DNA of 58,417 bases, from positions 1 to 58,417 of the IMG/VR virus record IMGVR_UViG_3300037408_000637; one strand, given 5' to 3'. The notes beneath the pieces are model-generated. The model was given only the letters and a program-made list of their open reading frames with translations, was not told where the DNA came from and did no database searches. Positions 4,729 through 55,555 of the stretch are shown here, in pieces. The first letter of the stretch is position 1; each line of letters opens with the position of its first letter. The stretch is from a virus. Lineage: Duplodnaviria > Caudoviricetes. The translations under genes were made by a program, and so were the position numbers.

Positions 4729-5040
4729 TCAACTGGCGGCAGCCGCCTCGCACGCGCGCTTGAAGATCTCCAGCACCGTGGCCAGCGAGATCGCCCCGTT
4801 GTCCGGCACCACCCGCAGGAGGCTGATCGGCTGGGGCGACCGACCGTAGAGGCGCCCCTCCATCTGCCACTGCATGCCGGTCGGATCGTGGGACATGCGG
4901 AATTCGACGTGCCCCGCCCCCTGCCCCCACGAGGCGACGTAGTCCCCCTGGTCCGTCCGGCTCCAGTCAAGTCGCACGCGCCGGTCCGTCCGGGCGAACC
5001 CAGGTTCGCGTGCGTGACGCATGGTCAGGGTGTTTCCCAT
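4729..5040 (-). CDS. hypothetical protein (paralog of 40407-40676)
   Basis: Shares RL(D/E)W...HDP..MQW.M.GR..G...VPD...F.R.CE with 40407-40676; own promoter TTGACA-N18-TAGTTT at 5047-5076. Confidence 0.65.
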   Translation of the reverse strand: MGNTLTMRHAREPGFARTDRRVRLDWSRTDQGDYVASWGQGAGHVEFRMSHDPTGMQWQMEGRLYGRSPQPISLLRVVPDNGAISLATVLEIFKRACEAAAAS

Positions 5041-5126: not shown

Positions 5127-6791
5127 TCAGACGCCAAGCGAATCGCACGCGATCTCCTCGCCGGGCGAACCCAGGTTCGCCTGCTTGCGCCGATACCGAG
5201 CAGCATCATAGACCCGCAGGCACGGCTTGCACGCCGCGCTCAGCCCATCCCATGACGCCTTCCGCTTCTGGAACTGAACCACGTCCAGAATCTGATCGCA
5301 CATGCTACACAGCTTCCGCCCCTCCGCCGCGTAGGGATTGCTCACCTTGAGGTGATCCTTGGGCTTGCTCCCCCCAATGTGCCCCGCCAGGGCCTCGCAC
5401 ACGTAGGCCCCGTCGTGCTTCGCCACGTTCCTGGCATAAGTGCGCGGTAGCACCGTGTGGTCCTTCTGGCAGTAGTCACAGTGGACGACCACCGAGGCTG
5501 CCTGCTCCTTCTGGTAGTGCCGCTCCCGGATCGCCTTGCGAGTACGCTGTTCGCGCTCCACATAAGTGGTATCCCCCTGCTGGCGCGATAAGTACTCGCG
5601 CGCCCATCCAATGATCCGTCCGTCCTCTCCCAGCATGCTATCCCGCTCCGTCCACACGCGAAAACCAACGCCAATGCTCACCGCATACATCGCCGTATCC
5701 GCAATCTGTGCGCGCGCTCGTGGCATATCCACCATGACCGATGGCTTGACCTCCCAGATCTCTTTGCGCCCGTCCCTCCGCTCGATCCACAGGTCTGGAG
5801 CACGCCACCGTCCCCTTGGTGTCTGAAATGCCTCGCAACGTCGGAAGGTTCGCACGTCTGGATCGCCCTCCAACTCGAACAGACACCGCAACTCGTAAGA
5901 CGATCCGAAGTACACCTCCCCGCCCGCCTTCTGCGAAGGAAAGTACCCCCGCATGTGGACGCCCCCACCGCTAATACCCGCCGCATTGGACCGCGCGGCC
6001 TGCTCCGAATTGTCCTGCCGTTGTGTCGGATGCGATGATGGTCGCAACGACAACACCCACCGCACCTTGCCCGCATCGTAACAACGCACCAACCCACGCG
6101 CCTGCGCCCAGGATCGCTCCGTCATCCCATCCGGACACCCGCTGGCCCGCTTCCGTTGGCTCTGCTTCGAGATACGCCGCCCATCCTGCACGTAAAAGTA
6201 GTCCGGTCGACACTGGGCATCGGCCACAAACCCCAAACGGTCGTATACCACCCCCGGCGTCAGACGGTTGTCGCTGAAGCTCAGGATCTCATCATAGCCA
6301 TGTGCCTCCGCCCAGGCACGCGCCCGATCCAACATCCGCGATGACCCACCGATCACCTGTACCCCATCTCGGAAGCACAACCGATCCAGCACGACCCGCC
6401 GCTCCTGGCCCTGTCGATGGTGCCGCCCCAGCGACAACACCCCGACCAACTCCGCCTCAACAAATAGGCCGAACACGACAAGGGCAAGATGATTCGCCCC
6501 CTGGATATGGAAGGCGTCCAGGAAGACCCGTGCCTCCCTCTTCTCCACCTCGCGCACCACACACTGACGCGCGCCCACCCGACGCTCAAACCGCCCCGCT
6601 CGCGCTCGCACAAACGCTTCACATGCCCCCCGCCGATCTGCCCACTCATCCGAGAACACATAGACACATCCCGGATCCACCATGATCCCGCTGGCCAGTC
6701 GCTCCACCACCTCGGGCTGCGCCAGATCCAGCACGACCAGACGCACGCCACGCCCAGTCAAGTCATTCCGTTTTGCAAGGGTGTTTTCCAT
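5127..6791 (-). CDS. putative homing endonuclease: Hef-like domain + TnsA-like PD-(D/E)xK nuclease + C-terminal Zn fingers
   Basis: ARQCVVREV...FLDAFHIQG...VIGGSSRML...SFSDNR...YDAGK (Hef-like); RGYFPSQK..SSYE...PDLWIE...EVKP (TnsA-N-like); CxxC pairs; start re-called to MENTLAK; codon style differs from the capsid gene. Confidence 0.7.
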   Translation of the reverse strand: MENTLAKRNDLTGRGVRLVVLDLAQPEVVERLASGIMVDPGCVYVFSDEWADRRGACEAFVRARAGRFERRVGARQCVVREVEKREARVFLDAFHIQGANHLALVVFGLFVEAELVGVLSLGRHHRQGQERRVVLDRLCFRDGVQVIGGSSRMLDRARAWAEAHGYDEILSFSDNRLTPGVVYDRLGFVADAQCRPDYFYVQDGRRISKQSQRKRASGCPDGMTERSWAQARGLVRCYDAGKVRWVLSLRPSSHPTQRQDNSEQAARSNAAGISGGGVHMRGYFPSQKAGGEVYFGSSYELRCLFELEGDPDVRTFRRCEAFQTPRGRWRAPDLWIERRDGRKEIWEVKPSVMVDMPRARAQIADTAMYAVSIGVGFRVWTERDSMLGEDGRIIGWAREYLSRQQGDTTYVEREQRTRKAIRERHYQKEQAASVVVHCDYCQKDHTVLPRTYARNVAKHDGAYVCEALAGHIGGSKPKDHLKVSNPYAAEGRKLCSMCDQILDVVQFQKRKASWDGLSAACKPCLRVYDAARYRRKQANLGSPGEEIACDSLGV

Positions 6792-11271: not shown

Positions 11272-12128
11272 TTCGTCTCCTCCGCGCCTTTCTTGGACCG
11301 CCCCGTTAGGTATGCGGCCACAACCTCCATGGTTTTCGCTCGTCCGCACAGTCGATCATGAGCCGCTGCCATCCGGTCTAGGTCTTCCGCTCGCATCAAC
11401 TGTTCGGCCCTCGCGATCAGCCCACAGAGGAGCTGCGCTTCAGCAATTAGCGACTTGCGGATGGCACCATAAAACCCATCTTGCTCATCAAACACCAAGC
11501 CAGAGATTTCGTCAACAATCTCCCTCAGTCGGGTAGAGACGATGCCCACGGACTCCCGCAGCTCCTCGGTGAACTCGGGCAGCCGCGCTCGGGGCAGCTT
11601 GGCGTAGGCCGTCTTGGGCAAGCGCGCCTCCAGCTCCCGGATGGACCCCCACATCGCCGTGCGGATCTTCTCCTGGTTCGCCTGGTAGGCCGTATGCCAA
11701 TGGTCGGCATCCTCCGCCAACATGGCCTGGTCCATGCGGGCGACCACGTCGCCCAGCCAGTAGTCCTCGTCGGCACGCAGGAGTCCGGCCAGCACGCGAA
11801 CCTGGGTTCGCGTCATCGGCTGCCCCTGCAACAGCCCCTCGGTGAGCCCCCGCAGTTCGTCCGCCACCAGCCGAGGGAGCTGCGCCGCCTCGTACATCGG
11901 CACCGGATCACGCCGGATCTCCACGCCCTCCACCGCGCCCTTCTGCATGGTGAACACCGCCTCGGCAATCCGGCCGGACGGGTCGCGGAACAGGGCGCAA
12001 TCGTCCCGCGTGGCGAGCAAGTCCACAGCAGTCCCCACGGCGCCCTTGATGGCCTCGGCCACCACGTCCATGCGGTCTTCCATGCTGCCGTCACACCACT
12101 TCTGAATATCCTGGGACTTCACGTACAT
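11268..12128 (-). CDS. hypothetical head morphogenesis protein
   Basis: 286-aa ORF directly downstream of the portal; GAGG RBS. Confidence 0.7.
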   Translation of the reverse strand: MYVKSQDIQKWCDGSMEDRMDVVAEAIKGAVGTAVDLLATRDDCALFRDPSGRIAEAVFTMQKGAVEGVEIRRDPVPMYEAAQLPRLVADELRGLTEGLLQGQPMTRTQVRVLAGLLRADEDYWLGDVVARMDQAMLAEDADHWHTAYQANQEKIRTAMWGSIRELEARLPKTAYAKLPRARLPEFTEELRESVGIVSTRLREIVDEISGLVFDEQDGFYGAIRKSLIAEAQLLCGLIARAEQLMRAEDLDRMAAAHDRLCGRAKTMEVVAAYLTGRSKKGAEETK

Positions 12129-13827: not shown

Positions 13828-15885
13828 TCAGTCGTCTCCTATGAAGAAGGGGGGCATGACACCCGATGCGTAGGCCGCCCCTCGGGTCGCCCGCACATCG
13901 TCGAGGTCCACGTCCTCCGCTGGGATCATGTCGCTCACCCAGCCATGCTCATGACCGACCGCTCTCCTTGGTGTATCAGCATCCGCCGCCCACGGCAAGC
14001 GAGCGGCATGTTGGCGCAGGCCCCAGACCACGCCAGCCAATGCGTCCGCGCAATCTTTACTGGAATGTCGAGGATGGTCAATTTTCCCCTTCACCCGGTC
14101 GTACTCCAGGGATCGCAGCTCCTGGAGCAAGACCTCATAATCGTACAGGTCGATGCGCTTCTCATAGATGGCCGACTTCAACTCCTCGTAGGCGTCCGTA
14201 CTGCGATCCATCGAGATCAGCTCGGTGTGGATGCCGTGCCGCCGAATCTGCTGGTGCATTTCCACGGACTGGAAGGCGTCGCTGGAGAACCCGTGGATGG
14301 GGTAGCCGTGGGCCTGCAACTCGTACACGATCCGCCGCAGGTCCGGCATGTAGATCTGCTCGCCGACCGGGGGGCGCACGCACAGGATCAACTCAATGAT
14401 GTAGTAGGGCGCCGTGTCGGTGTAGGCGTTCCCCTCGCCGTCCCGGCGCACCACCTCGACCCAGCGGTCGATCCGCCCCATCACGATCCCCGTCGAGTCC
14501 CCCGAGACCGAGGTGTCGATGTGAATCCAGCGCGGGGTGGACGGATCCTCGCGCGGTGCCCAGGCCGTCTCCGTGAACCCGCCGGGCAACCGTCGCTCGA
14601 CCTCCAGACACATGCCCTTCCAGTCAAACGTCCCCGGCGACCCCGCCACCCAGACCTCCTCCGAGAACGGGTGCGGGCGCTTGGTGATGCAGGCGTCGAT
14701 GGCGTCGATCCGCTGGAAGAAGGCCGAGATCGCCTGCGTGGACACGCCCGCGATGTCCCGCAGCGAGTCCTCCATGTTGGACTCGAAGTCCTCCCGGTAC
14801 TCCACCGGCACGTCGATCAGCCACGCCTCGTTCTCCTCCAAGTACGCCGTCGACAGGTCGTCCAGCTCGTCGTCGTCAAGGATGCGCGACCGCAGACTCG
14901 ACTTGGAGCACAGCACCCAGAACTTCTTCCCGCAGAACTGGTCGGCGGGCTTCGAGGTCCACGCCGTGTGGTCCCGCACGAAGATCGTCGGGTCCGTGCG
15001 CGCATCCCGCAACTTGCGCTCGGTGAAGCTGTCCAGGGTCGCGGCCGACGACACCATGATGACCATGCCCGGGAAGTCGCCGCCCGCCGTCTGGAAGCGC
15101 GACTTGATGCGCCGCACCATGGATCGGTACACCTTCTCCACGATGTCGAAGTTGGCCGCCGTCAGCTTGCGCCCGAACGTCTGGTGGATCTGCTGGGCGT
15201 TCCGCTTGGGCGGGAAGTTAGTTTCGTCCAGCATGGACGAGAACACGTTGGCGCCCAAGGCCCGCTCGGCCCCGTAGCTCCCGATGGTCATGCGGATGTT
15301 GTTGGGGAACAGCGTGTAGTCGGTCGAGAACTTGGGCGCGAAGTGCTCCATGAAGTACGGGCTCAACTTGATCTTGTCGTCGATACTCGTCTTCATCACC
15401 TCGCGGGCCAGGATGAGGTTCTTGGAGATCAGCATGATCACCATCTCGGTCCCCGACGACAGGCCAAACGTCCGCTGGGGATCCTTCAGGCAGGACAGCT
15501 CGTACAGGATGCGGCAGATCGCCACCGAGGCCACGAAGGTCTTACCGGCGCCGATGGAGCCAGTCAGCACGACTTCTCTATATGGTGCGGCGAAGAGGTC
15601 GATCAGATCCTGCTTGAGCGCCGGGTACAACGTCGTCAGGGAGTCCCCCAGGTAATAGGGATCTTCGATGAATTGGTGCATGGTCACGACAGGCCGCGCG
15701 TACAGCGACTCGTCCAGCCGCTGGCTCAGCAGGCACAGCGCCTCGGGATCCTCCTCGTTGAGCAGCGCCTTGAACAGCGCCCGCTCCTCCGGCGTACACA
15801 GCGCAAACCCGTCCTCGACGGACAGCACGTCCTCCCGGGGGGTCCGCACGCTCCGCCGTCGGCCGCTACTGCCGGTGACGATCAC
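13828..15885 (-). CDS. terL: terminase large subunit
   Basis: Walker A GSIGAGKT, Walker B MLDE, nuclease motifs HIDTSVSGDSTG and KDCADA; directly upstream of the portal. Confidence 0.9.
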   Translation of the reverse strand: MIVTGSSGRRRSVRTPREDVLSVEDGFALCTPEERALFKALLNEEDPEALCLLSQRLDESLYARPVVTMHQFIEDPYYLGDSLTTLYPALKQDLIDLFAAPYREVVLTGSIGAGKTFVASVAICRILYELSCLKDPQRTFGLSSGTEMVIMLISKNLILAREVMKTSIDDKIKLSPYFMEHFAPKFSTDYTLFPNNIRMTIGSYGAERALGANVFSSMLDETNFPPKRNAQQIHQTFGRKLTAANFDIVEKVYRSMVRRIKSRFQTAGGDFPGMVIMVSSAATLDSFTERKLRDARTDPTIFVRDHTAWTSKPADQFCGKKFWVLCSKSSLRSRILDDDELDDLSTAYLEENEAWLIDVPVEYREDFESNMEDSLRDIAGVSTQAISAFFQRIDAIDACITKRPHPFSEEVWVAGSPGTFDWKGMCLEVERRLPGGFTETAWAPREDPSTPRWIHIDTSVSGDSTGIVMGRIDRWVEVVRRDGEGNAYTDTAPYYIIELILCVRPPVGEQIYMPDLRRIVYELQAHGYPIHGFSSDAFQSVEMHQQIRRHGIHTELISMDRSTDAYEELKSAIYEKRIDLYDYEVLLQELRSLEYDRVKGKIDHPRHSSKDCADALAGVVWGLRQHAARLPWAADADTPRRAVGHEHGWVSDMIPAEDVDLDDVRATRGAAYASGVMPPFFIGDD

Positions 15886-16703
15886 GGGATCTCCGAATCT
15901 TCTTCGGCATCCTCGCTAAGCAAATTTCGGGGGGTCGCCTGCGAATATTCGGACACGGGGGTTGGATCGTCGGAATTTAGTTCGGATTCGCGAGACGAAC
16001 CTGGGTTCGCGTCCTCCGCGACGATGTCGATCACGTCCTCGCGCTCCGACAGTCGCATCACCCGCTTCAGCAGGCCCAGCACCTTGGCGCGGGACACCGG
16101 ATCGGCAAACGCCTGCGCCGCCCCGGCCCCGTACTTGTCCCGGATCTCCGCCAGCCGCTCCGCACTCACCGTCAGCGTGCCCAGGTCGCGGGAGCCCGTG
16201 AGCCCCAGGTCCATCTTGATGTCGTGCATTCGAGAGATGTAGTCCATCAAGACCTTGGCCTGCCGATCCACGTCGGGGTTCACCTTGCCGTTGCGCCGCT
16301 CCTCCCCATGGGACAGGTCGAAGCGGTACAACAACGCCTCGTAGGCCCGCTCCAGGCGCCGGAGATCCTCCATGCGGTCCCCGAACTCCTTCTGGGCCTT
16401 CACCACCAGGTGCGGGAGGCGCGGGGCGATCAGGTCCACGCCGACGATCTCGCGCTCGGCGTACTGGCGCAGGATCTCGGACAGCGACCGCCGCACCATG
16501 TCGAGGCACTCGCCCTCGTCCTCCTGGATGTAGCGGGCCACCTCGGGGCAGGGGTAGCCCGCGCACAGGCGCTCGTAGACCTCGCGGTGGCAGCGCAGCT
16601 TCTTGATGCGTTCGAAGGGGATCTCGCGACTCATCGGGGGGCCTCCCCGGGGGAGGCGGGACATTGCACTCGCAAGTGCATCGGCATGCGGGTCATCAGG
16701 CAA
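15882..16703 (-). CDS. putative terminase small subunit (start uncertain, possibly 16634)
   Basis: Helical protein with an N-terminal HTH-like segment directly upstream of terL. Confidence 0.55.
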   Translation of the reverse strand: MPDDPHADALASAMSRLPRGGPPMSREIPFERIKKLRCHREVYERLCAGYPCPEVARYIQEDEGECLDMVRRSLSEILRQYAEREIVGVDLIAPRLPHLVVKAQKEFGDRMEDLRRLERAYEALLYRFDLSHGEERRNGKVNPDVDRQAKVLMDYISRMHDIKMDLGLTGSRDLGTLTVSAERLAEIRDKYGAGAAQAFADPVSRAKVLGLLKRVMRLSEREDVIDIVAEDANPGSSRESELNSDDPTPVSEYSQATPRNLLSEDAEEDSEIP

Positions 16704-16753
16704 CCTTTGTCATCTAGTGGATCTCTTTAGGGGAGATCACGGCAACAGGCTCC

Positions 16754-16783
16754 AGGGTAGGCGGGGCAGACGGTGTTTGTCAA
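16754..16783 (-). promoter_or_regulatory. promoter for the packaging/head operon
   Basis: TTGACAAAC...-N18-TACCCT. Confidence 0.5.
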
Positions 16784-16802
16784 GCAAAGGGATGAGCGGG
16801 TA

Positions 16803-16831
16803 GGGGGATCCCCGAGGGGCAGGGATCCCCC
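16803..16831 (-). terminator. 10-bp GC hairpin closing the pentamer array
   Basis: GGGGGATCCC-N9-GGGATCCCCC perfect inverted repeat; no strong U-tract. Confidence 0.55.
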
Positions 16832-16848
16832 CACGCGCCGTTGTTCCG

Positions 16849-17460
16849 CCTACCGGCCGAGCCCTAGCCAGCCCCGCGATGCACCGGCATGCCCCGCCAT
16901 GCCTGCCGATCCATGCCGCTTCAGGCCAGACGCTGCCGCTCCACACCTCACCTGCCGATCCAGGCCCAACCCATTCCCACCGTGGCCCACCTGGCCTCGC
17001 CAGCCCGCCCTCTCCAAGCCAAGGCATCCCACTCCCAGCCTGCCAGTCCCGTCCCCGTCCTACCTTTCCGTGCCGGTCCCCGCCTGCCGGTCCCAGCCTC
17101 GTCGTGCCTTTCCCCGCGCAGCCCCGCCGCACCTATCCAGCCGATCCAGTCCGGCCCCTGCGGTACCAAGACAGCCCTTGCCAATCCAGCCCTGGCGCAA
17201 CCAGCCTCACCGAACCAGACCGCTCCATGATCCTCCTCGCCTGCCGTAATCGGCCGCGCCGTTCCGAGCCGACCTTGCCCTTCCTGCCAATCCCTTCCAA
17301 ACCTCGCCTATCCCCTCCAGACCTATCCCCGCCTGCCTCACGTTGCCAACCCTGGCCTAGCAGCGCCACACCAGAACCGACCTAGCCCCGCCATTCCTGC
17401 CGTTCCTCCACCCGCCAGATCTCGCCTCCACTCTCCAGTACCCGCCATTCCAATCCTGCC
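16849..17460 (-). ncRNA. non-coding GGNNN pentamer array punctuated by GGCAGG; candidate guide-RNA array
   Basis: Minus strand reads e.g. GGCA GGCGG GGATA GGTCT GGAGG GGATA GGCGA GGTTT GGAAG GGATT GGCA GG; about 12 units with spacings mostly 5n+4; no credible ORF. Confidence 0.8.
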
Positions 17461-17513
17461 ATGCCTGGCTCTGGGGCAGAACCCCGCGCCGATCCCGTGA
17501 GGACGTGCGCGCC

Positions 17514-18347
17514 TCACTCGCTGTCCGACGCATCATCCGTGTCCACCTCCGTCTCGTCTGTCTTCTTGCCCTTTTTTTTGCCCTTCTTGATCACCGCTGC
17601 CCCAGCTACGGCCTTCTGGCTCCGCAGCGCCTCCAGGATCGACTTGATGTCCATCTCGCCCTTGCGCAGGTACCCAGTGGCCTTCACCCACTGAGGACGC
17701 CCTGGAAGATCCTCCGCCTCCACCACCTCGAAACGACCATACGTTCCGCCCTTCTCCGGACGCCACTCGAAGATGCCCACGCCGTACCCAGCTACGTTGA
17801 GCAGGTTTAGGATCTGCTCCTTCGAGATCCCCAGCGCGTTGTACTCCACCACGACGTCAATCGCCCATTCCGCATACTCCGGTCGGAAGCGGATGTCCGC
17901 CGACTTCGCTCCCCGCTGGCCACGCACGCTGATCATATCGGCGCGCATCGTCCCTTCCTGGCCATTTTTCCCGTCCAGATACAGGATCGCCGCGCGCTCC
18001 TTGTCCTCCGTGCCCCAGACGAAAAACGCCTGACTCATGTGCGTCTTCTTCATGTCGCTCACGGAACTGATCGCCGAAATCATCGCCTTCTTGACCGCCG
18101 TGGCCAGGATGGCCTCGTTCCCGTTGCGGTCGTAGTACTTGGCATCCGCCACATCGCCCTCTGGATCTCGCTCCGGCCGTCCCCCCTTGGGCACCTTCAT
18201 CTCCTTGCCCAACAGCTCCATGACCGCCTTCTTCGACCAGGCATGGACGATCAGCGGATCGTCCCCCTGGATGCGCACCCGCATGAAGCGGATGTCCATG
18301 AACGGTTTGTGCTTCATCGTCGCGCCCGATTTCTCTTCCTTCGCCAT
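17514..18347 (-). CDS. stand-alone Cas7/RAMP-like RNA-binding protein
   Basis: N-terminal VRIQGDDPLIVH strand, TAVKKAMISA helix, IRFRPEY..W, and Gly-rich C-terminal loop AGYGVGIFEWRPEKGGTYGRFEV; start re-called to MAKEEK after GAGGAG. Confidence 0.65.
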   Translation of the reverse strand: MAKEEKSGATMKHKPFMDIRFMRVRIQGDDPLIVHAWSKKAVMELLGKEMKVPKGGRPERDPEGDVADAKYYDRNGNEAILATAVKKAMISAISSVSDMKKTHMSQAFFVWGTEDKERAAILYLDGKNGQEGTMRADMISVRGQRGAKSADIRFRPEYAEWAIDVVVEYNALGISKEQILNLLNVAGYGVGIFEWRPEKGGTYGRFEVVEAEDLPGRPQWVKATGYLRKGEMDIKSILEALRSQKAVAGAAVIKKGKKKGKKTDETEVDTDDASDSE

Positions 18348-18417
18348 GTCGTTCTCCTCGACGCGAACCCAGGTTCGCGTGTGCAATGCGGCAATCTGCT
18401 GCCGCGATCCATGCTCG

Positions 18418-18446
18418 CCATTACAATAATCAACCGCGTTTGTCAA
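18418..18446 (-). promoter_or_regulatory. promoter of the RAMP-like gene/array, followed by a palindromic site at 18361-18380
   Basis: TTGACAAAC...-N17-TAATGG; same class as the promoters at 20887, 27364, 32586, 54402 and 57384. Confidence 0.6.
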
Positions 18447-20842
18447 TCGGCGGTCTTGCGCGCCGCCAAGCGCTCGAACCAGGCCACGACGTCGGTCTGG
18501 GCGACCACCTCGCCGCCGCTGACCGCCGCATGCGCGACCGCCCGCTTGTCCTCGATCAGCGCGACCATGTCCTCGTCGAACGTGTCCTCCCCGACCAGCC
18601 AGTAGGCCGTGACCGCCCCCTGTACCCCGATGCGATGGCAGCGCGCCTCCGCCTGATCCATGTCGCCCGCGTGCCAGCCGAACTCGAAGAAGGCCACGTT
18701 GCTCGCCGCCTGGAGGTTCAACCCGACGCTCGCCGCCTTGAGGCTGCATACGATCACGCGGCAGGTCGGGTCCGCCCAGAACCGCTGGACCGCCGCGTCC
18801 CGCGCTGCGTCCGCGTCCCCGCCGCTGATCGACACCGCGCCGTAGGCCGCCAGATCCGCCAGCAGCCGCTCCTGGATGTCCCGATGATGCGCGAAGAGGA
18901 CCAGCTTCTGCCCCTCCGCCGCCTCCAGCCACTCCTGCACCCAGGCCACCCCGTTCGCGTACTTGCCCCGGACCGCGAGTTGCCGCAGCCCCTCGACCCG
19001 GACCAGCATCTCCGCGCGATAGGCCGCCTCGGACGGGAGCGAGCCCCGGTTCGCCGCCATCCAGGCCACGATGTCGTCCATGGCCCGCTGGTAGGCGCGC
19101 GGGTCATCGACCTCGACCGGGACCACGGTCCGCCGCAGGGCGGGCAGCTCGGCCAGCACGTCCGCCTTCTCCCGCCGGATCATGCAGCGCTCCCGCAAGA
19201 GCCGGTTCAACTCGTCCAGGTTGGACGATCCGGTCATGTCCCAGCCGTATTTCGTCTCGTGTGCGGCGCAGTAGCGCTTGGCAAACGACATGAACCCGCC
19301 GAACGCGGCGAGCTGCCCCAGGATGTCCAACTGGCTCACGAGTTCGATGGGCCGGTTCAGGACGGGCGTGCCGGTCAGCAGCAGCGTGCATTTCAGCCCC
19401 GCCATCTTCGCCAGCGCCTTGACCCGCTGGGTCCGATCCGCCTTGGCCTGCTTGACCAGGTGCGACTCGTCCACGACCAGCGACCGGAAGCCATGCGCCT
19501 GGATCTCGGGCGCCAACGGCCACTCATATTTCTTCTTTTTGTCGCCGGGCTTCGTCACGTCCACCTTGCCGACCAGCTTGGAGAGTTGGTCGTAGTTGAT
19601 GACCACGACGTCCCCGCCCATGCCCGCGACCAGCCCGTGTTTGGCCAGCCGCTTCGCCGTCCCCTTGAGCCCGACGAGGCTCGCCGTGCGCCCGGCCAGG
19701 AACTTGGTCGTCTCCCGCGCCCATTGCCGCAAGACCGCCTTCGGAACCACGACCAGGCAGGGCCAGGCGTCCAACTGCGCGACCGTGATCAGCGCCTGGG
19801 GTGTCTTGCCCAGGCCCATTTCGTCCGCGATCAGCACCTGTCGCTTCTCCTGCGCGTAGGCCACCCCCGCCTTCTGATACGCATAGGGCACCGCCCCAGG
19901 GGCCAGGCCCGTCAACGCCACGTCCGCGTCCGCCGCCTGGCTCGCCGCCCGGAAGCGATCCGCCTCCACCCGCAGCGCCCAGAGGGGCTTCGCGCTGGCC
20001 CCCAGCCGCCACCCAAACCGCGCCGCCAACGCCTCGACCGCCTTGGCCGCCTCCGCCGTGGCAGGCGCCGTCCAGACCTTGTCCTGCGCGTTCCAGCGCC
20101 GCCCGGGCAGCGCCTCCTTGAGCGCCGCCGTCGCCTCGGGATGATAGGGGGTCCGCAGGACGATCTGGTCTTTCTCGATGAGGACGTGGTCCGGGGCAGG
20201 GGCCGCCGCGACTGGGGTCGCGTGCGCAGCGCCCTGGATCGTCTCCAGATCCGCGTTGCTCACGACGAAGTCAAACTGCGCGAAGATCGCCGGGAGCGCC
20301 CGTGCGTTCTCCGCCGACAGCTCCGCCTCCCATTGCCGGGCCTCGCCGTTCCAGCGCCGCCGCCCCGGCAGGGCCTTGATCGCCGCGATCAGGGCGTCGT
20401 TCTTCGGGCTGATGAAGCAGACCGCGCGACGGTCCACCCAGGCCAGGTAGTCCGCGACCTCGCGCACCCGCATGCGACTCGCCGCCCCCGTCGCGTAGGC
20501 CGCACGCACCCGTGTTCGCTCCGCCGCCGCCGCCCGCGTCTTGAAGGATTCGTAGTTGGCGTGCCGGTCGACCGGCACGGTCCTGATCACGCGCGGCAGG
20601 GAATCGCAGTCCACCCCGTAGGCCGCCAACTGGCCCCGGTAGTGGCCCAGCATGTCGCTCACCGCGACCAGATCCGCCTCGGTCCATTGATCCGCCGGGG
20701 TGGCCGCGATGGCCCGCCCATAGGAGGTATCCGACGCGCTAAAGCCGACCTGATCCTGTTTGCGCGCGCCGTCGCAGACGCTCGCCAAGGCCGCCGCCGC
20801 AAAGCGCAACCGTTCCGCGATTTCGATCTTTTCGTTGTCCAT
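18443..20842 (-). CDS. SNF2-family (SMARCAL1/HARP-like) helicase
   Basis: LIADEMGLGKT, VVDESH, LLTGTP..NR, GLNLQAA, QAEARCHRIG; two N-terminal repeats (LPGRRW...W). Confidence 0.9.
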   Translation of the reverse strand: MDNEKIEIAERLRFAAAALASVCDGARKQDQVGFSASDTSYGRAIAATPADQWTEADLVAVSDMLGHYRGQLAAYGVDCDSLPRVIRTVPVDRHANYESFKTRAAAAERTRVRAAYATGAASRMRVREVADYLAWVDRRAVCFISPKNDALIAAIKALPGRRRWNGEARQWEAELSAENARALPAIFAQFDFVVSNADLETIQGAAHATPVAAAPAPDHVLIEKDQIVLRTPYHPEATAALKEALPGRRWNAQDKVWTAPATAEAAKAVEALAARFGWRLGASAKPLWALRVEADRFRAASQAADADVALTGLAPGAVPYAYQKAGVAYAQEKRQVLIADEMGLGKTPQALITVAQLDAWPCLVVVPKAVLRQWARETTKFLAGRTASLVGLKGTAKRLAKHGLVAGMGGDVVVINYDQLSKLVGKVDVTKPGDKKKKYEWPLAPEIQAHGFRSLVVDESHLVKQAKADRTQRVKALAKMAGLKCTLLLTGTPVLNRPIELVSQLDILGQLAAFGGFMSFAKRYCAAHETKYGWDMTGSSNLDELNRLLRERCMIRREKADVLAELPALRRTVVPVEVDDPRAYQRAMDDIVAWMAANRGSLPSEAAYRAEMLVRVEGLRQLAVRGKYANGVAWVQEWLEAAEGQKLVLFAHHRDIQERLLADLAAYGAVSISGGDADAARDAAVQRFWADPTCRVIVCSLKAASVGLNLQAASNVAFFEFGWHAGDMDQAEARCHRIGVQGAVTAYWLVGEDTFDEDMVALIEDKRAVAHAAVSGGEVVAQTDVVAWFERLAARKTAD

Positions 20843-20886: not shown

Positions 20887-20915
20887 AATTTACCGCGTCG
20901 CCTTGGGTTTGTCAA
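20887..20915 (-). promoter_or_regulatory. TTGACAAAC-class promoter
   Basis: TTGACA-N17-TAAATT. Confidence 0.7.
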
Positions 20916-20930
20916 CCGGGGAGGTGCGGG

Positions 20931-27310: not shown

Positions 27311-27435
27311 GGACGCCTCCTCTGAAACGCTGAATCGACCATCCTGGCCGCGATCTTGCCGCAAAATTACCAAGGCACTCGGGGTTTGTCAACGAGGGAA
27401 ACGGTGGTATTTACGCGAGGAATACGGATCATTCC

Positions 27436-27502: not shown

Positions 27503-27841
27503 CTACGGGACGTCCTGGGACGTCACGAGACGCGAACCTGGGTTCGCCTCGCCGCCCAGCTCCTCCTCCCACCGTCGCAGGAAGGAATCCTCGCCGTCAT
27601 CCGAGGACACCAGCCAGTCCACTCGTTGCACCATGATCGCCGCCCGCCGACAGGTGGCTGCCGCCTCCCGGAACCGCGCAATCACCTCGGGGAGGAATCC
27701 ATACCCGCGCGGTTCGTCGGGATCGTAGCGGTAGCGCTCCTCGTCCGAGAGGAGCTTGTCGTTGTCCCGCACCAGGCGCTCGATCTCCTCGGCCACGTCG
27801 TCGAAAAGGTGTTGCTTGTATTGAAAATGCCCGCCGCTCAT
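27503..27841 (-). CDS. hypothetical phage protein
   Basis: MSGGHFQY...RVDWLVSSDDGEDSF; ATGA overlap with the upstream gene. Confidence 0.7.
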   Translation of the reverse strand: MSGGHFQYKQHLFDDVAEEIERLVRDNDKLLSDEERYRYDPDEPRGYGFLPEVIARFREAAATCRRAAIMVQRVDWLVSSDDGEDSFLRRWEEELGGEANPGSRLVTSQDVP

Positions 27842-35888: not shown

Positions 35889-36018
35889 CTTGTCCCTCCG
35901 TTCAACACGCGAACCTGGGTTCGCGTCGCAACAACGGCCCATCCTACCCCGTCGCCGGGGCAAACGCCAGATCAACGTCGCAGATCCCAACCGAACACGC
36001 CGGATCGCGACCTCTCCG

Positions 36019-43500: not shown

Positions 43501-45675
43501 TTACCCACGGTCGTTCACCCCGATCACTTCCATGACCTCCGCATCTTCCAAGTCCAACTGCTTCCGCAAAGCCGCGCACTCTTTCCGCGCCTCTCCCAAG
43601 CGAATCCGATACTCTCCCAACTCCGCCAAGACGTTCAACATCCGCTCGGCCAACGAATACCGATACGGCGGCAACACGGCGATCTCCTCCCCGGTGAGCC
43701 CCTCGGTCTCCTGGGCAGACATCGGCCGGGATTCCCTGCACCCCGCCGCACTCAAAATGCGATGCAACTCCCCCAACTCCATCCGTGGATCTCCCCCCTG
43801 TCCCCCCCGGGATGAATCCTGACTCCGGGCTTCCGCCTCGCGGTCCAAGGTCCGCTCCTGCCCCTGCCAAATCGACGGCAGGCCGTTCCAGTGCTTGGCG
43901 TCCAGGATGTCCAAAGGGGCCTTATCTGCCGAGATCGGTCGCGCCGTCGGCAGGGCATCCCAGTCGCGCGTGTCCGTCGCGGCCGGAACGGATCTCCGCA
44001 AAATCGCCCGTGCATCCCCTGGCCGAATGGCCGCACCAGAATCGCAACCAATCCCGTAAGACTGCTCCTCTCGCGCCTCCTTCGCCCGCGTCACCTTCTC
44101 CGCGACCTCCTCAATCGCGGTGCGTGCCTCGTCCAGCTTGGCCGTAAGATCGTCCCGATCCGCCACAAGCTCCCAGAGCTGCTCGGACGTCGACAGGACG
44201 CGCCAGGAAGGGGCGCCCGTCGTCGCGTACACGCCCGCCTTCTCCAAGATCGCGCGGACGCGATCCACCTCTTTCCAGCCCCAATCTTCCTTCATCTCGT
44301 CCAGTTTAGCCTGGAGATCATCGCGCTCGGCCTGTAGCGCCGACATCGTGGCATCCTTTTTCCCGCACACCGCCATCCACCCGTCCCGCTGCGCGGTCAG
44401 CATCCGCACCCGATCCGCCAACGAAACGGTGTCTACTTCCTGGCCACCCGGCACCCCTACCCCATCGAGCGCCATTTGCGCCTCCGCCCACGCCTTCCTC
44501 TCTTTATCCCGCTGCGCGACCAGCATTGCCACTCGCTCGGACATCGGGATCATCACCCCGGCATCCGTCGTCACCCCATCTGCCGACGCGGTCGCCGCCC
44601 GCTCCCCGGGCGTGTACGGTCGCCAGTCCGGCACCCCGGCCTTATCCAATTCCAAGCGCGCCGCTGTCCACCGCTGGTCCCAGCGCTCGAACTCGCTGCG
44701 ATCCCTCGATATGGTATTCCGTAGCGCCGTCAACTCTCGCTGCAACCGCTCCACCACCCCTTCGTGGTGGCACGCGCCCGCATGGCTGTCCCATTCCCGC
44801 TTCCGCGCCAGCCGCTCGCCTGCCAGTAGCGTCTCCAGATCGCGAATCTTCTGCCACTCCTGCGTCCCGTCCGGCACCGCTACCACCGGCCCGAGAGGCA
44901 CCCAGCCCGCGAACTCCTGCACCTTGACGCCCCCGTGGGGGTGGCACACCCAGATATTCTGCGACCCGTCCCGCACGACCGGGTACACCGCCCGCTCCGC
45001 CTCACCCGTCACGCTCGGGCGCGTAAACCACCACCACCAGGGACGGCCCGGCTGTACCGCGTCAAACTGCGGCAAATACAACGTCCGACAGCCGTTATTC
45101 ATGCCAGGCATCTCACCCGATCTTGTCGTCATCGTAGGCAACACAAATGGCACGAACCCAGGTTCGCCTCTAACCGGAGGCTGCGGCACCGCTGGCCCGC
45201 TCCCGTCCGGCACGTACTGCACCCGCTTCAACTGATCGGCCAACCACGCCTCCTGCGCCAACGTCTCCGCCATCTTGCCAGTCAAACCATCGAGCGGCGG
45301 CGGATAGAACTGCGACACCTCCATCGGCACGCGCGGCAACGCATCCCCGTTCGCATTGGGCACCAGGGGCTGCGCCGCCACAATGTCCTCCGAGGCGGGC
45401 ACCCCCTGCCCATCGAGGACGATGGGGATCAGATTCCCCTCCTGCCCAGGTTCGGGCCGCAGGACCAAGCCGATCCCGCCAGACCCCCCGCCCGACTCGA
45501 TCCCGATCACCCAGTAGAGGCCATGGCTCCAATACACGCGGTCGCCAATCGCCACCCCGGGCATCTGCATCGCAAGCGACGCGGGCACATTCAAAATGAG
45601 GCCCCGGCCCTTGACCACATGCTCCTGACATCCCGGTTGATCGTCCAGGTGCCAGGCGTGCGCTTGCTTGATCAT
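43501..45675 (-). CDS. large coiled-coil hypothetical protein
   Basis: 724-aa ORF with repeated L..AGVP...S(L/M).(E/D)RV..L.A.RD segments. Confidence 0.65.
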   Translation of the reverse strand: MIKQAHAWHLDDQPGCQEHVVKGRGLILNVPASLAMQMPGVAIGDRVYWSHGLYWVIGIESGGGSGGIGLVLRPEPGQEGNLIPIVLDGQGVPASEDIVAAQPLVPNANGDALPRVPMEVSQFYPPPLDGLTGKMAETLAQEAWLADQLKRVQYVPDGSGPAVPQPPVRGEPGFVPFVLPTMTTRSGEMPGMNNGCRTLYLPQFDAVQPGRPWWWWFTRPSVTGEAERAVYPVVRDGSQNIWVCHPHGGVKVQEFAGWVPLGPVVAVPDGTQEWQKIRDLETLLAGERLARKREWDSHAGACHHEGVVERLQRELTALRNTISRDRSEFERWDQRWTAARLELDKAGVPDWRPYTPGERAATASADGVTTDAGVMIPMSERVAMLVAQRDKERKAWAEAQMALDGVGVPGGQEVDTVSLADRVRMLTAQRDGWMAVCGKKDATMSALQAERDDLQAKLDEMKEDWGWKEVDRVRAILEKAGVYATTGAPSWRVLSTSEQLWELVADRDDLTAKLDEARTAIEEVAEKVTRAKEAREEQSYGIGCDSGAAIRPGDARAILRRSVPAATDTRDWDALPTARPISADKAPLDILDAKHWNGLPSIWQGQERTLDREAEARSQDSSRGGQGGDPRMELGELHRILSAAGCRESRPMSAQETEGLTGEEIAVLPPYRYSLAERMLNVLAELGEYRIRLGEARKECAALRKQLDLEDAEVMEVIGVNDRG

Positions 45676-46460: not shown

Positions 46461-47608
46461 CTATCCCGCCACCTCGTTGTACTGGAACGACCCGTCCCGA
46501 AACCGCACCAAACGAAAGCTCGCCGTGCGGATCGACGGACGGGCCGTCGCCGCCTCCGTCGCACACGGCGGCCCGAAGGGCAACGGGATCACGCGCCGGT
46601 ACACCGGCAGCAACGGCACCATGACCTCGCACTGATCCCGCATCCCATCCCGCCAGAGAAATAACGCCTTCATCCGTCACCGTCCTCGTCGTCGATCTTC
46701 CCCGTCTGCCGCAGCGCTCGGCACGCCTCGAAGTGCGTGTTCAATGTATCCTTTGGGCCGTCGCCCATCCAGAAAATACTCTGGTAGCGCTCCCGCGTCT
46801 TCGGGTCGCATCCCCAGACCATCGTCTCCGCGTACCGGAGAGCCCCCGCATAGGGCGCCGAGCTGTCCCGGTTGATCGTGCTCACGAAAAAGAGCTGCTC
46901 CCCGTACCACACGTAGCTCTGAATGACATACTCGCTCATGACTCCTCCTCGAACGGATCGGCCAACGTGACTGCCTCGGAAAGGTTCAGGATCTCGCCGT
47001 CGTCGTAGATGGCCAGCAGCCCCGCGATCTCGCCGCCCAGGTCCGCCGCCATCTCCCGCTGCTCTGGCGTCGTCAAGGCGCCCACGAGCCGGTTGTAGCT
47101 CGCCGCAATGTGGCGCCGTAGCCCGTTGAAATCGACATTCATGGCCCCTCCTCCCGTGGCGTTTCCGCCACTTTCTGGTGGTACTTCTCGACCACCCGCT
47201 TGATGAGATCCCCCGTCCAGAACTGCTTCTCACCAAAGGCTCGCGCCAGATCCGCTGGATAGTGCGGCGACAGCTCGATCTCCCGCACCGGATCGCCCTC
47301 CATCGCGACCACATACCCGGCGACCTCCAGGTAGTACCGCCCGCAGGCAAACCCCCAATCGACGATCCGCTGGGTCGTGCTCATTTCGCCCCCTTCGCCT
47401 GCTCTTCCAGGAGCCACACCACCCACCCATACAGCTTGAGTTGCAAGTCCACGTCCGCCGCCTCGTACCAGTCCGCCAACTCGTCGTCGTGCGCCTTGAG
47501 CGCCTTCTCGAACCCGGCCAGCACGGCATAGACCCCGTGCTGCTCGCCCTGCTCGGCCTGCCACCGCTCGATCAGCGTCCGATACCGCTTCTGTCCCTCT
47601 TGCGTCAT
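46461..47608 (-). other. small coupled hypothetical genes (46461-46673, 46670-46939, 46936-47142, 47139-47384, 47381-47608)
   Basis: Tiling ORFs with start/stop overlaps. Confidence 0.55.
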
Positions 47609-55505: not shown

Positions 55506-55555
55506 GGCGCCATCCCCCACGGACGGATCCGGCGCGGACGCGAACCCAGGTTCGC

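What the first reader, a model, noticed from the sequence alone, without database searches (positions are those of the whole stretch)
16849..17460. Variable dinucleotides of the array read as codon positions 1-2 (wobble-skipping guide code)
Seen: taking the last two bases of each pentamer and inserting one skipped base gives protein-like strings. Unit 16956-16902 (GGTGA GGTGT GGAGC GGCAG CGTCT GGCCT GAAGC GGCAT GGATC) gives GA GT GC AG CT CT GC AT TC = (E/D)VA(R/S)LLA(I/M)S, close to the EVARLLGIS helix of excisionase-type HTH proteins. Unit 17401-17332 gives AT GG TA CG CT GT GC TA CA TT AA GA = (M/I)GYRLVAY(Q/H)(L/F)(K/N)(E/D). Unit 17337-17283 gives GYLGY(D/E)(F/L)(R/S)(F/L). Unit 17460-17396 gives (F/L)(I/M)GL(D/E)(D/E)(D/E)LG(D/E)T. 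Inference: each unit may specify a gapped NNx target in coding DNA of competing phages, mobile elements or the host, which would make it insensitive to synonymous escape. Short ambiguous strings can look protein-like by chance, so this is a hypothesis.
Basis: inference. Interest (0 to 1): 0.85.

Follow-up and report, generated by a model that had tools for sequence, protein, structure and literature searches.

The report
Phage VIPR guide-RNA array

Summary
On the minus strand, 16849-17471 is a non-coding array of about 127 short units. There are 115 pentamers and 12 tetramers, with GG at positions 1-2, and the array is unique in the record. The four quoted units and their dinucleotide strings are exact.

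The gene directly upstream (17514-18347, minus strand) is a Vipr RAMP protein. A profile of it and 58 relatives hits the solved SUSP1 Vipr at E 4.4e-30, and the RNA-binding residues are kept. The locus is therefore a VIPR (Viral Interference Programmable Repeat) system.

In that family, preprints show by experiment that Vipr holds each GGY. The NN dinucleotides pair with DNA while skipping every third target base, which usually falls on the codon wobble position.

Support from this locus itself is limited:
- GGCA tetramers cut the array into 9-12-repeat units (spacing 49 nt twice here, modal 49 in relatives), like the published 'staggered' arrays.
- In homologous guides, position 3 changes about twice as often as either NN base.

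No natural target was found. Seven window guides scanned by exact match (nine scans) gave only chance-level hits, and shuffled controls did as well.

This is a new, somewhat deviant member of a known kind: position 3 is a pyrimidine in only 60% of repeats.

The parts
17514..18347 (-). vipr gene, 277 aa: RAMP protein of the VIPR family (phrog_4652). It carries a C-terminal extension of about 70 residues with a lysine-rich stretch and an acidic tail.
   Evidence: ATG at 18347 preceded by GAGGAG. Profile A1 hits PDB 36pp_D 'SUSP1 Vipr protein' at E 4.4e-30. The single sequence hits it at E 1e-4, with R155, E193, W194 and R195 aligned to SUSP1 R138, D177, W178 and R179. The profile consensus His aligns to H17. 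phrog_4652 matches at E 5.6e-21. An AlphaFold2 model of an N-truncated 243-aa version has pLDDT 82.7. Its best Foldseek rows are CRISPR Cas7/Csm RAMPs, none at E <= 0.001.
17472..17513 (-). Short leader between the vipr stop codon and the first repeats. It contains a GC-rich inverted repeat. Relatives share the ...CCAGGCATGGCAGG entry into the array.
   Evidence: Read directly. Function not tested.
16849..17471 (-). vrRNA array: about 127 repeat units (GG + H + NN). Tetramers, mostly GGCA, cut it into about 10 guide units of 9-12 repeats plus short irregular pieces.
17402..17456 (-). NN = TT AT GG CT GA GA GA CT GG GA AC. Four repeats have a decayed GG.
   Evidence: Exact 1-nt-skip scan of viral contigs: 0 hits.
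17338..17397 (-).
   Evidence: Exact scans: viral contigs 0, genome contigs 0. The homologous unit in L002 differs at 5 positions, 2 of them in NN.
17289..17333 (-). The sequence is identical in L009. The homologous L002 unit has the same NN string and differs at three position-3 bases only.
   Evidence: Exact scan of viral contigs: 0.
17256..17284 (-). Irregular stretch: 2 + 3 pentamers separated by GGTC and followed by GGCC.
17207..17251 (-). Guide unit, 9 repeats, three decayed. It contains an internal GGCAGG.
17143..17202 (-). Guide unit, 12 repeats, followed by GGCT.
   Evidence: Exact scan of genome contigs: 0.
17089..17138 (-). Guide unit, 10 repeats.
   Evidence: Exact scan of viral contigs: 0.
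17011..17084 (-). Short piece of 4 repeats (17084-17065), a GGTA tetramer, then a 10-repeat unit (17060-17011).
16957..17006 (-). Guide unit, 10 repeats, conserved in all five relatives' arrays.
   Evidence: Metagenome scan: 2 hits that are one identical sequence, with the skip base on codon position 2.
16908..16952 (-). NN = GA GT GC AG CT CT GC AT TC.
   Evidence: Three exact hits in viral contigs, all with the skip base on the third position of an open frame. One lies in a 92-aa Sigma70_r4-like protein. No other clade guide converges on those records.
16849..16903 (-). Last unit, 11 repeats, strongly decayed.
16803..16831 (-). Perfect 10-bp inverted repeat (GGGGGATCCC ... GGGATCCCCC) with a 9-nt loop, just after the array. 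It may be a 3' end or terminator hairpin, but it has no T run.
   Evidence: Read directly. The consensus terminator scan found nothing.
15882..16703 (-). Downstream 273-aa gene of no known family, in the position of a small terminase ahead of the large terminase (13828-15885). This is context and not shown to be part of the system.

Best explanation
The locus is a phage-encoded VIPR system. The vipr gene (17514-18347, - strand) makes a minimal RAMP protein. The array just downstream (17471-16849) is transcribed with it and yields about ten guide RNAs (vrRNAs) of 9-12 pentamer repeats.

By analogy with the solved SUSP1 system, one Vipr protomer binds each repeat. It flips out GG and the third base and presents the two variable bases. 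These pair with two bases of a DNA target, the next target base is skipped, and so on. Five RNA bases therefore read three DNA bases.

The filament holds the target as an R-loop and silences transcription of a competing phage, satellite or prophage gene. Because the skipped base usually lies on the wobble position, synonymous changes do not free the target.

Shown here: family membership, repeat anatomy, unit structure, and relative constraint on NN.

Inferred from the family: expression and processing of the guides, the 1-nt skip rule at this locus, silencing, and the kind of target.

The units abut through a GGCA tetramer (GGCAG and the next GGNNN share one G). They lack the 40-nt structured tail of SUSP1. 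This fits the 'staggered arrays' named in the preprint.
For: (1) Protein. Profile of the window protein plus 58 relatives hits PDB 36pp_D, SUSP1 Vipr, at E 4.4e-30 over chain residues 2-193 of 202. The residues the cryo-EM preprint names as GG and Y contacts are kept: H17 (consensus His, PLIVHAW in the window), R138, D177 as Glu, W178, R179. The weak structural matches are nearly all CRISPR RAMPs.

(2) Gene-array linkage across phages. A pattern with no protein information, (GGNNN)x9 + GGCAGG, found at least 120 viral contigs. Of those 120 loci, 95 hold a Vipr-profile ORF. In 45 the array starts within 150 nt of the vipr stop, and in 34 it starts 150-800 nt after it.

(3) Anatomy matches the published vrRNA. 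GG is fixed and NN is near uniform. Units have 9-12 repeats. GGCAGG spacings in the window are 59, 64, 49, 43, 157, 44, 88 and 49 nt. In the five relatives' arrays the modal spacing is 49 nt, which is GGCA + 9 pentamers. The published range is 9-16 repeats.

(4) Homologous guides in the six related arrays: 227 pentamer comparisons gave 6, 12, 45, 22 and 25 substitutions at positions 1-5. Unit 3 has the same NN string in the window, L009 and L002, and the L002 copy differs at three position-3 bases only.

(5) NN composition fits codon positions 1-2 much better than the two phases that contain the GC-rich third position.

(6) No guide matches the phage's own genome beyond controls, except one 15/18 match. 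This accords with the published lack of self-targeting.

(7) The array is non-coding and has no Rfam match.
Against: No natural target was found.

Exact 1-nt-skip scans of seven window guides gave the following. Unit 2: viral contigs 0, genome contigs 0. Unit 1: viral 0. Unit 3: viral 0. The 17138 unit: viral 0. The 17202 unit: genome contigs 0. The 17006 unit: metagenome contigs, one sequence found twice, out of codon phase. The 16952 unit: viral 3, which by my rough estimate is about the number expected by chance for 18 fixed bases. One guide of a relative gave 0.

Mismatch-tolerant tests gave no excess over shuffled guides, and skip 1 was no better than skips 0, 2 or 3. These ran against 1 Mb of fetched loci, the three hit records, and 330 kb of the clade's own genomes.

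Position 3 is a pyrimidine in only 60% of the window's GG repeats, against a median of 0.91 over 102 loci. In SUSP1 the pocket is said to exclude purines. The pairing rule could therefore differ here.

About a quarter of the repeats have a decayed GG.

No accessory gene was recognised. phrog_15946, present in 50 of 129 fetched loci, is absent from the window.

Expression is not shown. Contigs from two RNA libraries cover 17165-17355 and part of vipr, but such libraries can hold DNA.
Confidence: 0.88

Rival explanations
1. It is a VIPR-type system, but this clade reads its targets by another rule. The skip length could differ, or position 3 could take part in pairing. Position 3 is not held to a pyrimidine and the units have no structured tail.
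For: Pyrimidine fraction at position 3 is 0.60 in the window and 0.46-0.64 in the clade, against a median of 0.91. The preprint itself lists NNNGG, YNNNG and NNNNG variants whose rule was not tested. No target was found under the 1-nt rule.
Against: In homologous guides position 3 changes about twice as often as positions 4 or 5. That is the opposite of what a pairing base should do. Position 3 is A in 28% of repeats, unlike the third codon position of GC-rich genes. Skips 0, 2 and 3 did no better than skip 1 in every local test. The thumb and G-loop residues are conserved.
Confidence: 0.08
2. The array binds Vipr but no longer guides it, or never did. It could be a decayed remnant, or a decoy or sponge that titrates a competitor's Vipr.
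For: In the parse 29 of 127 units lack GG, and the last unit is heavily decayed. No targets were found. The October 2026 preprint's abstract reports standalone vrRNAs that redirect a rival's VIPR.
Against: An intact vipr gene lies directly upstream with its key residues kept. Five relatives have arrays of about 870-1100 nt with shared and unshared units. NN strings are preserved where position 3 drifts.
Confidence: 0.03
3. It is a structural DNA or RNA element unrelated to guiding. Candidates are a packaging or end-protection site beside the terminase genes, an R-loop-prone G-rich tract, or a protein sponge.
For: The array lies just upstream of the packaging genes and is G-rich on the transcribed strand.
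Against: In other phages the array follows vipr, not the terminase. Only the close relatives have this terminase neighbourhood. The 46%-identical relatives of the downstream gene lack an array. None of these models explains a fixed GG every 5 nt with free bases between.
Confidence: 0.01

Closest known systems
Type II VIPR of Escherichia phage SUSP1 and the Pseudomonas fulva prophage (bioRxiv 10.64898/2026.04.26.720920 and .720927; PDB 36pp)
   Same: Homologous Vipr RAMP protein with the GG and third-base contact residues kept. Phage-borne. Guides are built of 5-nt repeats with fixed GG and free NN, 9-16 per guide. The array lies next to vipr on the same strand.
   Different: The window protein is under about 30% identical to it (single-sequence E only 1e-4) and carries a C-terminal extension of about 70 residues. 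Position 3 is C, A or T rather than a pyrimidine. There is no 40-nt structured tail between guides. The window has about ten abutting guides, where SUSP1 has four of about 100 nt. No vap1-like gene was recognised.
'Staggered' VIPR arrays with vrRNAs overlapping by 1 nt (legend of fig. S18 of the same preprint, read as text; the figure and supplementary data were not visible)
   Same: Guides follow one another without spacers. The GGCA tetramer means that GGCAG and the next GGNNN share one G, which is a 1-nt overlap.
   Different: I could not see the figure or the type tables. Whether this clade is among the 667 classified loci, and which of the seven types it is, remains open.
Class 1 CRISPR backbone (Cas7/Csm3 filaments on crRNA)
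   Same: RAMP fold, with one protomer per fixed RNA step and a thumb that flips bases out at regular intervals. The weak structural matches of the model are almost all Cas7/Csm proteins.
   Different: There are no CRISPR repeats or spacers, no cas genes, and no adaptation module. The step is 5 nt with 3 bases withheld, against 6 nt with 1 withheld. The guide is noncontiguous.

Membership tests
VIPR system | A Vipr protein (minimal RAMP) encoded at the locus | tested here: met
   Profile A1 vs PDB 36pp_D at E 4.4e-30. Single sequence at E 1e-4. phrog_4652 at E 5.6e-21.
VIPR system | Residues that hold G1, G2 and base 3 in SUSP1 Vipr (H17, R138, D177, W178, R179; named) | tested here: met
   R155, E193, W194 and R195 align to R138, D177, W178 and R179. 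The profile consensus His aligns to H17, and the window has PLIVHAW there. D177 is Glu. The His equivalence for the window itself is by motif, because the window row of A1 lacked its first 34 residues.
VIPR system | Tandem 5-nt repeats with invariant GG and hypervariable NN | tested here: met
   G is 0.89 and 0.85 at positions 1-2, and positions 4-5 are near uniform. Lag-5 and lag-10 excess of 1.9-2.1x.
VIPR system | Pyrimidine at repeat position 3 (GGY) | tested here: not met
   Y is 0.60, A 0.29 and G 0.11 in the window's 70 GG repeats. The median Y over 102 loci is 0.91. The preprint admits 'a related consensus', naming NNNGG, YNNNG and NNNNG repeats, so this lowers fit to the type II form, not to the family.
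VIPR system | 9-16 repeats per vrRNA | tested here: met
Units of 9, 9, 9, 10, 10, 10, 11, 11, 12 and 12 repeats between tetramers. GGCAGG spacing is modal 49 nt in the relatives' arrays.
VIPR system | Conserved structured 3' tail after each repeat tract (type II) | tested here: not met
   Units abut through a 4-nt GGCA. This is consistent with the tail-less 'staggered' architecture named in the preprint.
VIPR system | An accessory vap gene beside vipr | tested here: inconclusive
   phrog_15946 lies beside vipr or the array in 50 of 129 fetched loci but has no match in the window at E <= 10. An SNF2 helicase lies upstream. Strong SNF2 matches come only from the close relatives. Weak ones (E 1e-6 to 4e-4) occur in 4 other loci. 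The vap families are defined in supplements I could not see.
VIPR system | Array expressed as discrete small RNAs that bind Vipr | not testable with these tools
   Only assembled contigs of two RNA libraries were available. One 191-nt contig covers 17165-17355 and another covers 17994-18161. These show neither strand, nor ends, nor that the material is RNA.
VIPR system | Natural targets under the 1-nt skip rule, mostly in coding DNA with the skip on the third codon position | tested here: inconclusive
   Seven window guides were scanned by exact match in nine scans. Only chance-level hits came back. There was no excess over shuffles locally. The scans took exact matches only, so power was low.
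CRISPR-Cas | Repeat-spacer array with cas genes for adaptation and interference | tested here: not met
   There are no direct repeats of CRISPR type. The only RAMP is Vipr, and neighbours are a helicase, a DHH phosphoesterase and terminase.

The most novel reading that the evidence does not exclude
This wetland phage clade carries a distinct VIPR form. Its guides are tail-less and abutting, with a modal 49-nt unit in the clade, set apart only by a GGCA frame slip. Its Vipr pocket accepts adenine at repeat position 3. A lysine-rich and acidic C-terminal extension of Vipr stands in for the usual accessory gene. If so, guide processing and perhaps target handling differ from the characterised type II systems.
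Probability: 0.3. Interest if true: 0.5.

Novelty: new member of a known kind. Interest (0 to 1): 0.3.

Why it matters
That code was published in 2026 as the working principle of VIPR systems, so the idea is right but not new.

The locus still adds some things:
- A distant Vipr, at most about 31% identical to homologs in deposited phage genomes, in an uncultured wetland phage that is probably about 170-185 kb.
- A long staggered array.
- A relaxed third repeat position, which bears on how strictly the protein pocket defines the repeat.
- A simple pattern search that recovered at least 120 viral contigs with such arrays. Of the 120 loci fetched, 95 hold a Vipr gene. This gives a protein-free way to find these systems.

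Tried and rejected
Models considered before the protein was identified. I weighed a TRAP-like ring-binding RNA, a Chi-like or telomere-like end-protection tract, an R-loop tract like immunoglobulin switch regions, a CsrA sponge, and a small-terminase site. All were dropped once the array proved to travel with vipr and not with the terminase.

Sequence-level searches that found nothing. Tandem Repeats Finder saw only fragments, with periods of 10, 14, 15, 20 and 44. A Fourier measure over 200-nt windows missed the array because of the frame slips. Rfam gave no match. blastn of the array against deposited phages gave no match.

Skip-rule tests.
- 60 clade guides against 1.05 Mb of fetched loci: mean best match was 0.77 for every skip and for shuffles.
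- 710 guides from all loci: no difference between skips or from shuffles.
- 61 clade guides against the three records hit by the 16952 unit: like the shuffles apart from the ascertained hit.
- 61 clade guides against 330 kb of the clade's own records: no excess.

Other points.
- The exact-match collection scans are listed in the Against line.
- RNA evidence: two metatranscriptome libraries hold short contigs over 16317-16742, 17165-17355 and 17994-18161. The rest of the array has no cover. These are assembled contigs at low depth and may be DNA carry-over.
- Consensus promoter and terminator scans of 16600-18500 found nothing.
- My first coordinates for vipr (17514-18245) cut off 34 N-terminal residues. 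Searches used that truncated form. Searches used the full 277 aa.
Full report
WHAT IS THERE

The window is the whole record, 58,417 bases in one contig. Between two minus-strand genes lies a 0.6-kb non-coding stretch that is very C-rich on the plus strand: C 302 and G 117 of 612 bases.

On the plus strand, CC recurs at lags 5 and 10 about twice as often as expected (71 against 37.0, and 76 against 36.6). At lags 2, 3, 7 and 8 it recurs at a third to a half of expectation. No other part of the record behaves like this. Windows starting 16801-17301 score 23-46.5, against a 99th percentile of 13.4.

There are 115 pentamers and 12 tetramers, and 98 units begin with GG. Positions 1-2 are G in 0.89 and 0.85 of pentamers. 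Position 3 is C 0.41, A 0.28, T 0.18 and G 0.13. Positions 4-5 are near uniform.

Six of the twelve tetramers are GGCA, giving GGCAGG. GGCAGG recurs at spacings of 59, 64, 49, 43, 157, 44, 88 and 49 nt. They are exact in place, sequence and dinucleotide reading.

RELATIVES

A search with the downstream 273-aa protein found nine viral contigs.
- Five of them (74-77% identity) carry the same kind of array, about 870-1100 nt long, on the gene strand between homologs of the two flanking genes.
- One is cut off 121 nt upstream of the gene.
- Three distant ones (46% identity) have no array.

In the five arrays GGCAGG recurs at a modal 49 nt, which is GGCA plus nine pentamers. Spacings of 44, 54, 39 and 59 nt are also frequent. 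Some units are shared between phages and others are not.

Their G+C content is 0.36-0.76, and their arrays are 150-1690 nt long.

THE PROTEIN

In low-GC examples the array begins right after the stop codon of a gene ending ...GIGEWRPEK..G.FG.F.V. That gene is homologous to the window's upstream gene.

I first took this gene as 17514-18245, which cut off 34 residues. The real start is the ATG at 18347, behind GAGGAG, giving 277 aa.

Evidence on what the protein is:
- Pfam has no family for it. PHROGs places it in phrog_4652, of unknown function.
- A profile of the window protein and 58 homologs from the fetched loci hits one solved structure, 36pp chain D, 'SUSP1 Vipr protein'. The E-value is 4.4e-30 over residues 2-193 of 202.
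- The window protein alone hits the same chain at E 1e-4.
- An AlphaFold2 model of the truncated form (pLDDT 82.7) finds only weak Foldseek matches, none at E <= 0.001. Nearly all are CRISPR RAMP proteins, namely Cas7 of a type I-B Cascade and Csm subunits. That Foldseek library ends in April 2026, and no Vipr entry was among its listed matches.

WHAT IS KNOWN OF THAT FAMILY

Three bioRxiv preprints of 2026 describe VIPR, Viral Interference Programmable Repeat systems (listings).

From 10.64898/2026.04.26.720920 I read the Results, Methods sections 20, 26 and 27, and passages of the Discussion and figure legends. It reports:
- Vipr is a minimal RAMP found mainly in phages and proviruses.
- Next to it lie RNAs of 9-16 YNNGG repeats, in which GGY is conserved and NN is hypervariable.
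- The NN dinucleotides specify a double-stranded DNA target under a '1-nt skip rule'. This was shown by pangenome matches, competitive binding and GFP repression.
- The skipped base overwhelmingly falls on the third codon position. The authors argue that this defeats escape by synonymous change.
- Natural targets are satellites, prophages and other VIPR systems.
- There are seven types. Variants include NNNGG-type repeats and 'staggered arrays' whose vrRNAs overlap by 1 nt.

From 10.64898/2026.04.26.720927 I read the first part of the Results. One protomer binds each repeat. H17 and D177 hold G1. R138 and W178 hold G2. R179 and a narrow pocket hold Y3 and exclude purines. Five RNA bases span three target bases in an R-loop triplex.

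From 10.64898/2026.10.15.759431 I saw only the abstract and outline. [quoted passage not shown]

I therefore could not see the type tables or figure S18 itself.

MEMBERSHIP

In the pairwise alignment, R155, E193, W194 and R195 of the window protein stand at R138, D177, W178 and R179 of SUSP1 Vipr. The family consensus has His at H17, where the window reads PLIVHAW.

Of the 120 loci found by the DNA pattern alone:
- 95 hold a Vipr-profile ORF.
- In 45 the array starts within 150 nt after the vipr stop.
- In 34 it starts 150-800 nt after the stop.
- In 9 it lies only upstream of vipr.
- 25 have no Vipr ORF in the stretch held, which is often cut by a contig end.

The array's fixed GG, free NN and 9-12 repeats per unit fit the published vrRNA. 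Two features of the type II form are not met:
- Position 3 is a pyrimidine in only 0.60 of the window's GG repeats. The clade range is 0.46-0.64, and the median over 102 loci is 0.91.
- There is no 40-nt tail between units.

The GGCA tetramer makes GGCAG and the next GGNNN share one G. This is what the legend of figure S18 describes, so I read the array as a staggered one. That is an inference from the legend text.

EVIDENCE FROM THIS CLADE THAT NN CARRIES THE INFORMATION

Among homologous guide pairs of the six arrays (at most 20% mismatch), 227 distinct pentamer comparisons gave 6, 12, 45, 22 and 25 substitutions at positions 1-5. Position 3 therefore drifts about twice as fast as either NN base. 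The pairs are not phylogenetically independent, so this is indicative only.

The clearest case is unit 17333-17289. It is identical in L009. The homologous unit of L002 has the same nine NN dinucleotides and differs only in three C/A changes at position 3.

NN composition fits codon positions 1-2 of the phage's own genes far better than the other two phases or bulk DNA. It fits no better than a uniform model. The strings are thus compatible with coding targets but not demonstrably 'protein-like'.

Exact scans under the 1-nt skip rule:

| Guide (window unit) | Collection | Exact hits |
|---|---|---|
| Unit 2 (24 fixed bases) | viral contigs | 0 |
| Unit 2 | genome contigs | 0 |
| Unit 1 | viral contigs | 0 |
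| Unit 3 | viral contigs | 0 |
| 17138 unit | viral contigs | 0 |
| 17202 unit | genome contigs | 0 |
| 17006 unit | metagenome contigs | 2 |
| 16952 unit | viral contigs | 3 |
| One perfect 10-repeat guide of L003 | viral contigs | 0 |

The two metagenome hits for the 17006 unit are one identical sequence, with the skip base on codon position 2.

For the 16952 unit, all three hits have the skip base on the third position of an open frame. One lies in the helix-turn-helix of a 92-aa protein of a complete 61.9-kb phage. That protein matches Sigma70_r4 at E 3.1e-5 with 23.9 bits, against a cut-off of 24.1. Three hits for 18 fixed bases is about what I estimate chance to give in a collection of this size. 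That estimate is rough, because the collection's size is not stated. G-first dinucleotides also favour in-frame matches. None of the other 60 clade guides matched those three records better than shuffled guides did.

Mismatch-tolerant tests showed no excess over shuffles, and skip 1 had no advantage over skips 0, 2 or 3:
- 1 Mb of fetched loci.
- 330 kb of the clade's own records.

Within its own genome, the best match of any guide is 15 of 18 for the 16952 unit, at 47031-47006 and in frame. Twenty shuffles reached at most 0.78. Over ten guides this is not significant.

Their power was low, however. The collection scans took exact matches only, and the host and its resident elements are unknown. 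The published systems needed host pangenomes to find their targets.

VERDICT

Confidence in membership is high. Confidence that the 1-nt skip rule and coding targets hold at this very locus is moderate. It rests on homology, conserved contact residues and the substitution pattern.

The finding is a new member of a known kind, with some deviations worth a specialist's look: relaxed position 3, staggered tail-less units, an extended Vipr, and no recognised accessory gene.

Noticed in passing
window, e.g. 4990-5016, 5161-5187, 11784-11814, 15989-16013, 18357-18381, 27520-27550, 35897-35927, 45153-45178, 48663-48693, 55528-55558: A 16-bp palindrome, GCGAACCYRGGTTCGC, occurs about ten times across the record. 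One copy lies just upstream of the vipr start. It may be an operator or a hairpin signal of this phage.
   Followed up: no
window 20887-20922, 27364-27399 and 16778-16783 (minus strand): TTGACAAAC recurs on the gene strand. At two sites a TAAATT or TAATTT lies 17 nt downstream, which looks like a promoter. The copy just after the array has only a poor second hexamer, and the consensus scan did not call it.
   Followed up: partly
whole window; relative G006 (record of L009): The closest long relative is 168,688 bases and is rated 91% complete. A 58-kb relative is rated 31% complete. The window is therefore probably about a third of a 170-185-kb phage genome, and targets or accessory genes could lie outside it.
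   Followed up: partly
loci L010-L129, e.g. L019:1868-2332: A second conserved gene (phrog_15946, function unknown, motif ...HPxFEWDDxxAA...) lies between vipr and the array or just after the array in 50 of 129 fetched loci. It is a candidate accessory (vap) gene. The window has no copy.
   Followed up: partly
L109 (array at 5711-6040): In this array, position 3 of the repeat is adenine in 91% of 33 GG repeats (GGA rather than GGY). This is the extreme of the relaxed third position.
   Followed up: no
L078, L022, L011, L017, L035, L052, L079: These loci show two arrays spaced roughly 0.5-1 kb apart on one strand. In L078 and L022 the vipr ORF lies between them, recalling the upstream plus downstream vrRNAs reported for SUSP1.
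   Followed up: no
window 47006-47031 (minus strand, inside ORF 46670-47350): This is the best own-genome match of any guide: 15 of 18 bases for unit 16952-16908, in codon phase, reading EIAGLLAIY. It is not significant over ten guides.
   Followed up: yes
window 16057-17711 in run X4: A DNA run from another wetland sample holds a near-identical strain, with 32 differing letters and one deletion over 1.65 kb. Four of the changes lie in the array. One turns GGAGA into GTTGA, the form the relatives have, leaving NN unchanged.
   Followed up: partly
phage collection, e.g. Gordonia phage Ecliptus 10395-10952, Mycobacterium phage Quico 37731-38276: tblastn finds Vipr homologs in 122 deposited phage genomes (Escherichia 58, Mycobacterium 27, Salmonella 10, Shigella 8, Gordonia 5 and others). 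All 25 listed rows are annotated 'hypothetical protein', at about 30-31% identity to the window protein.
   Followed up: no
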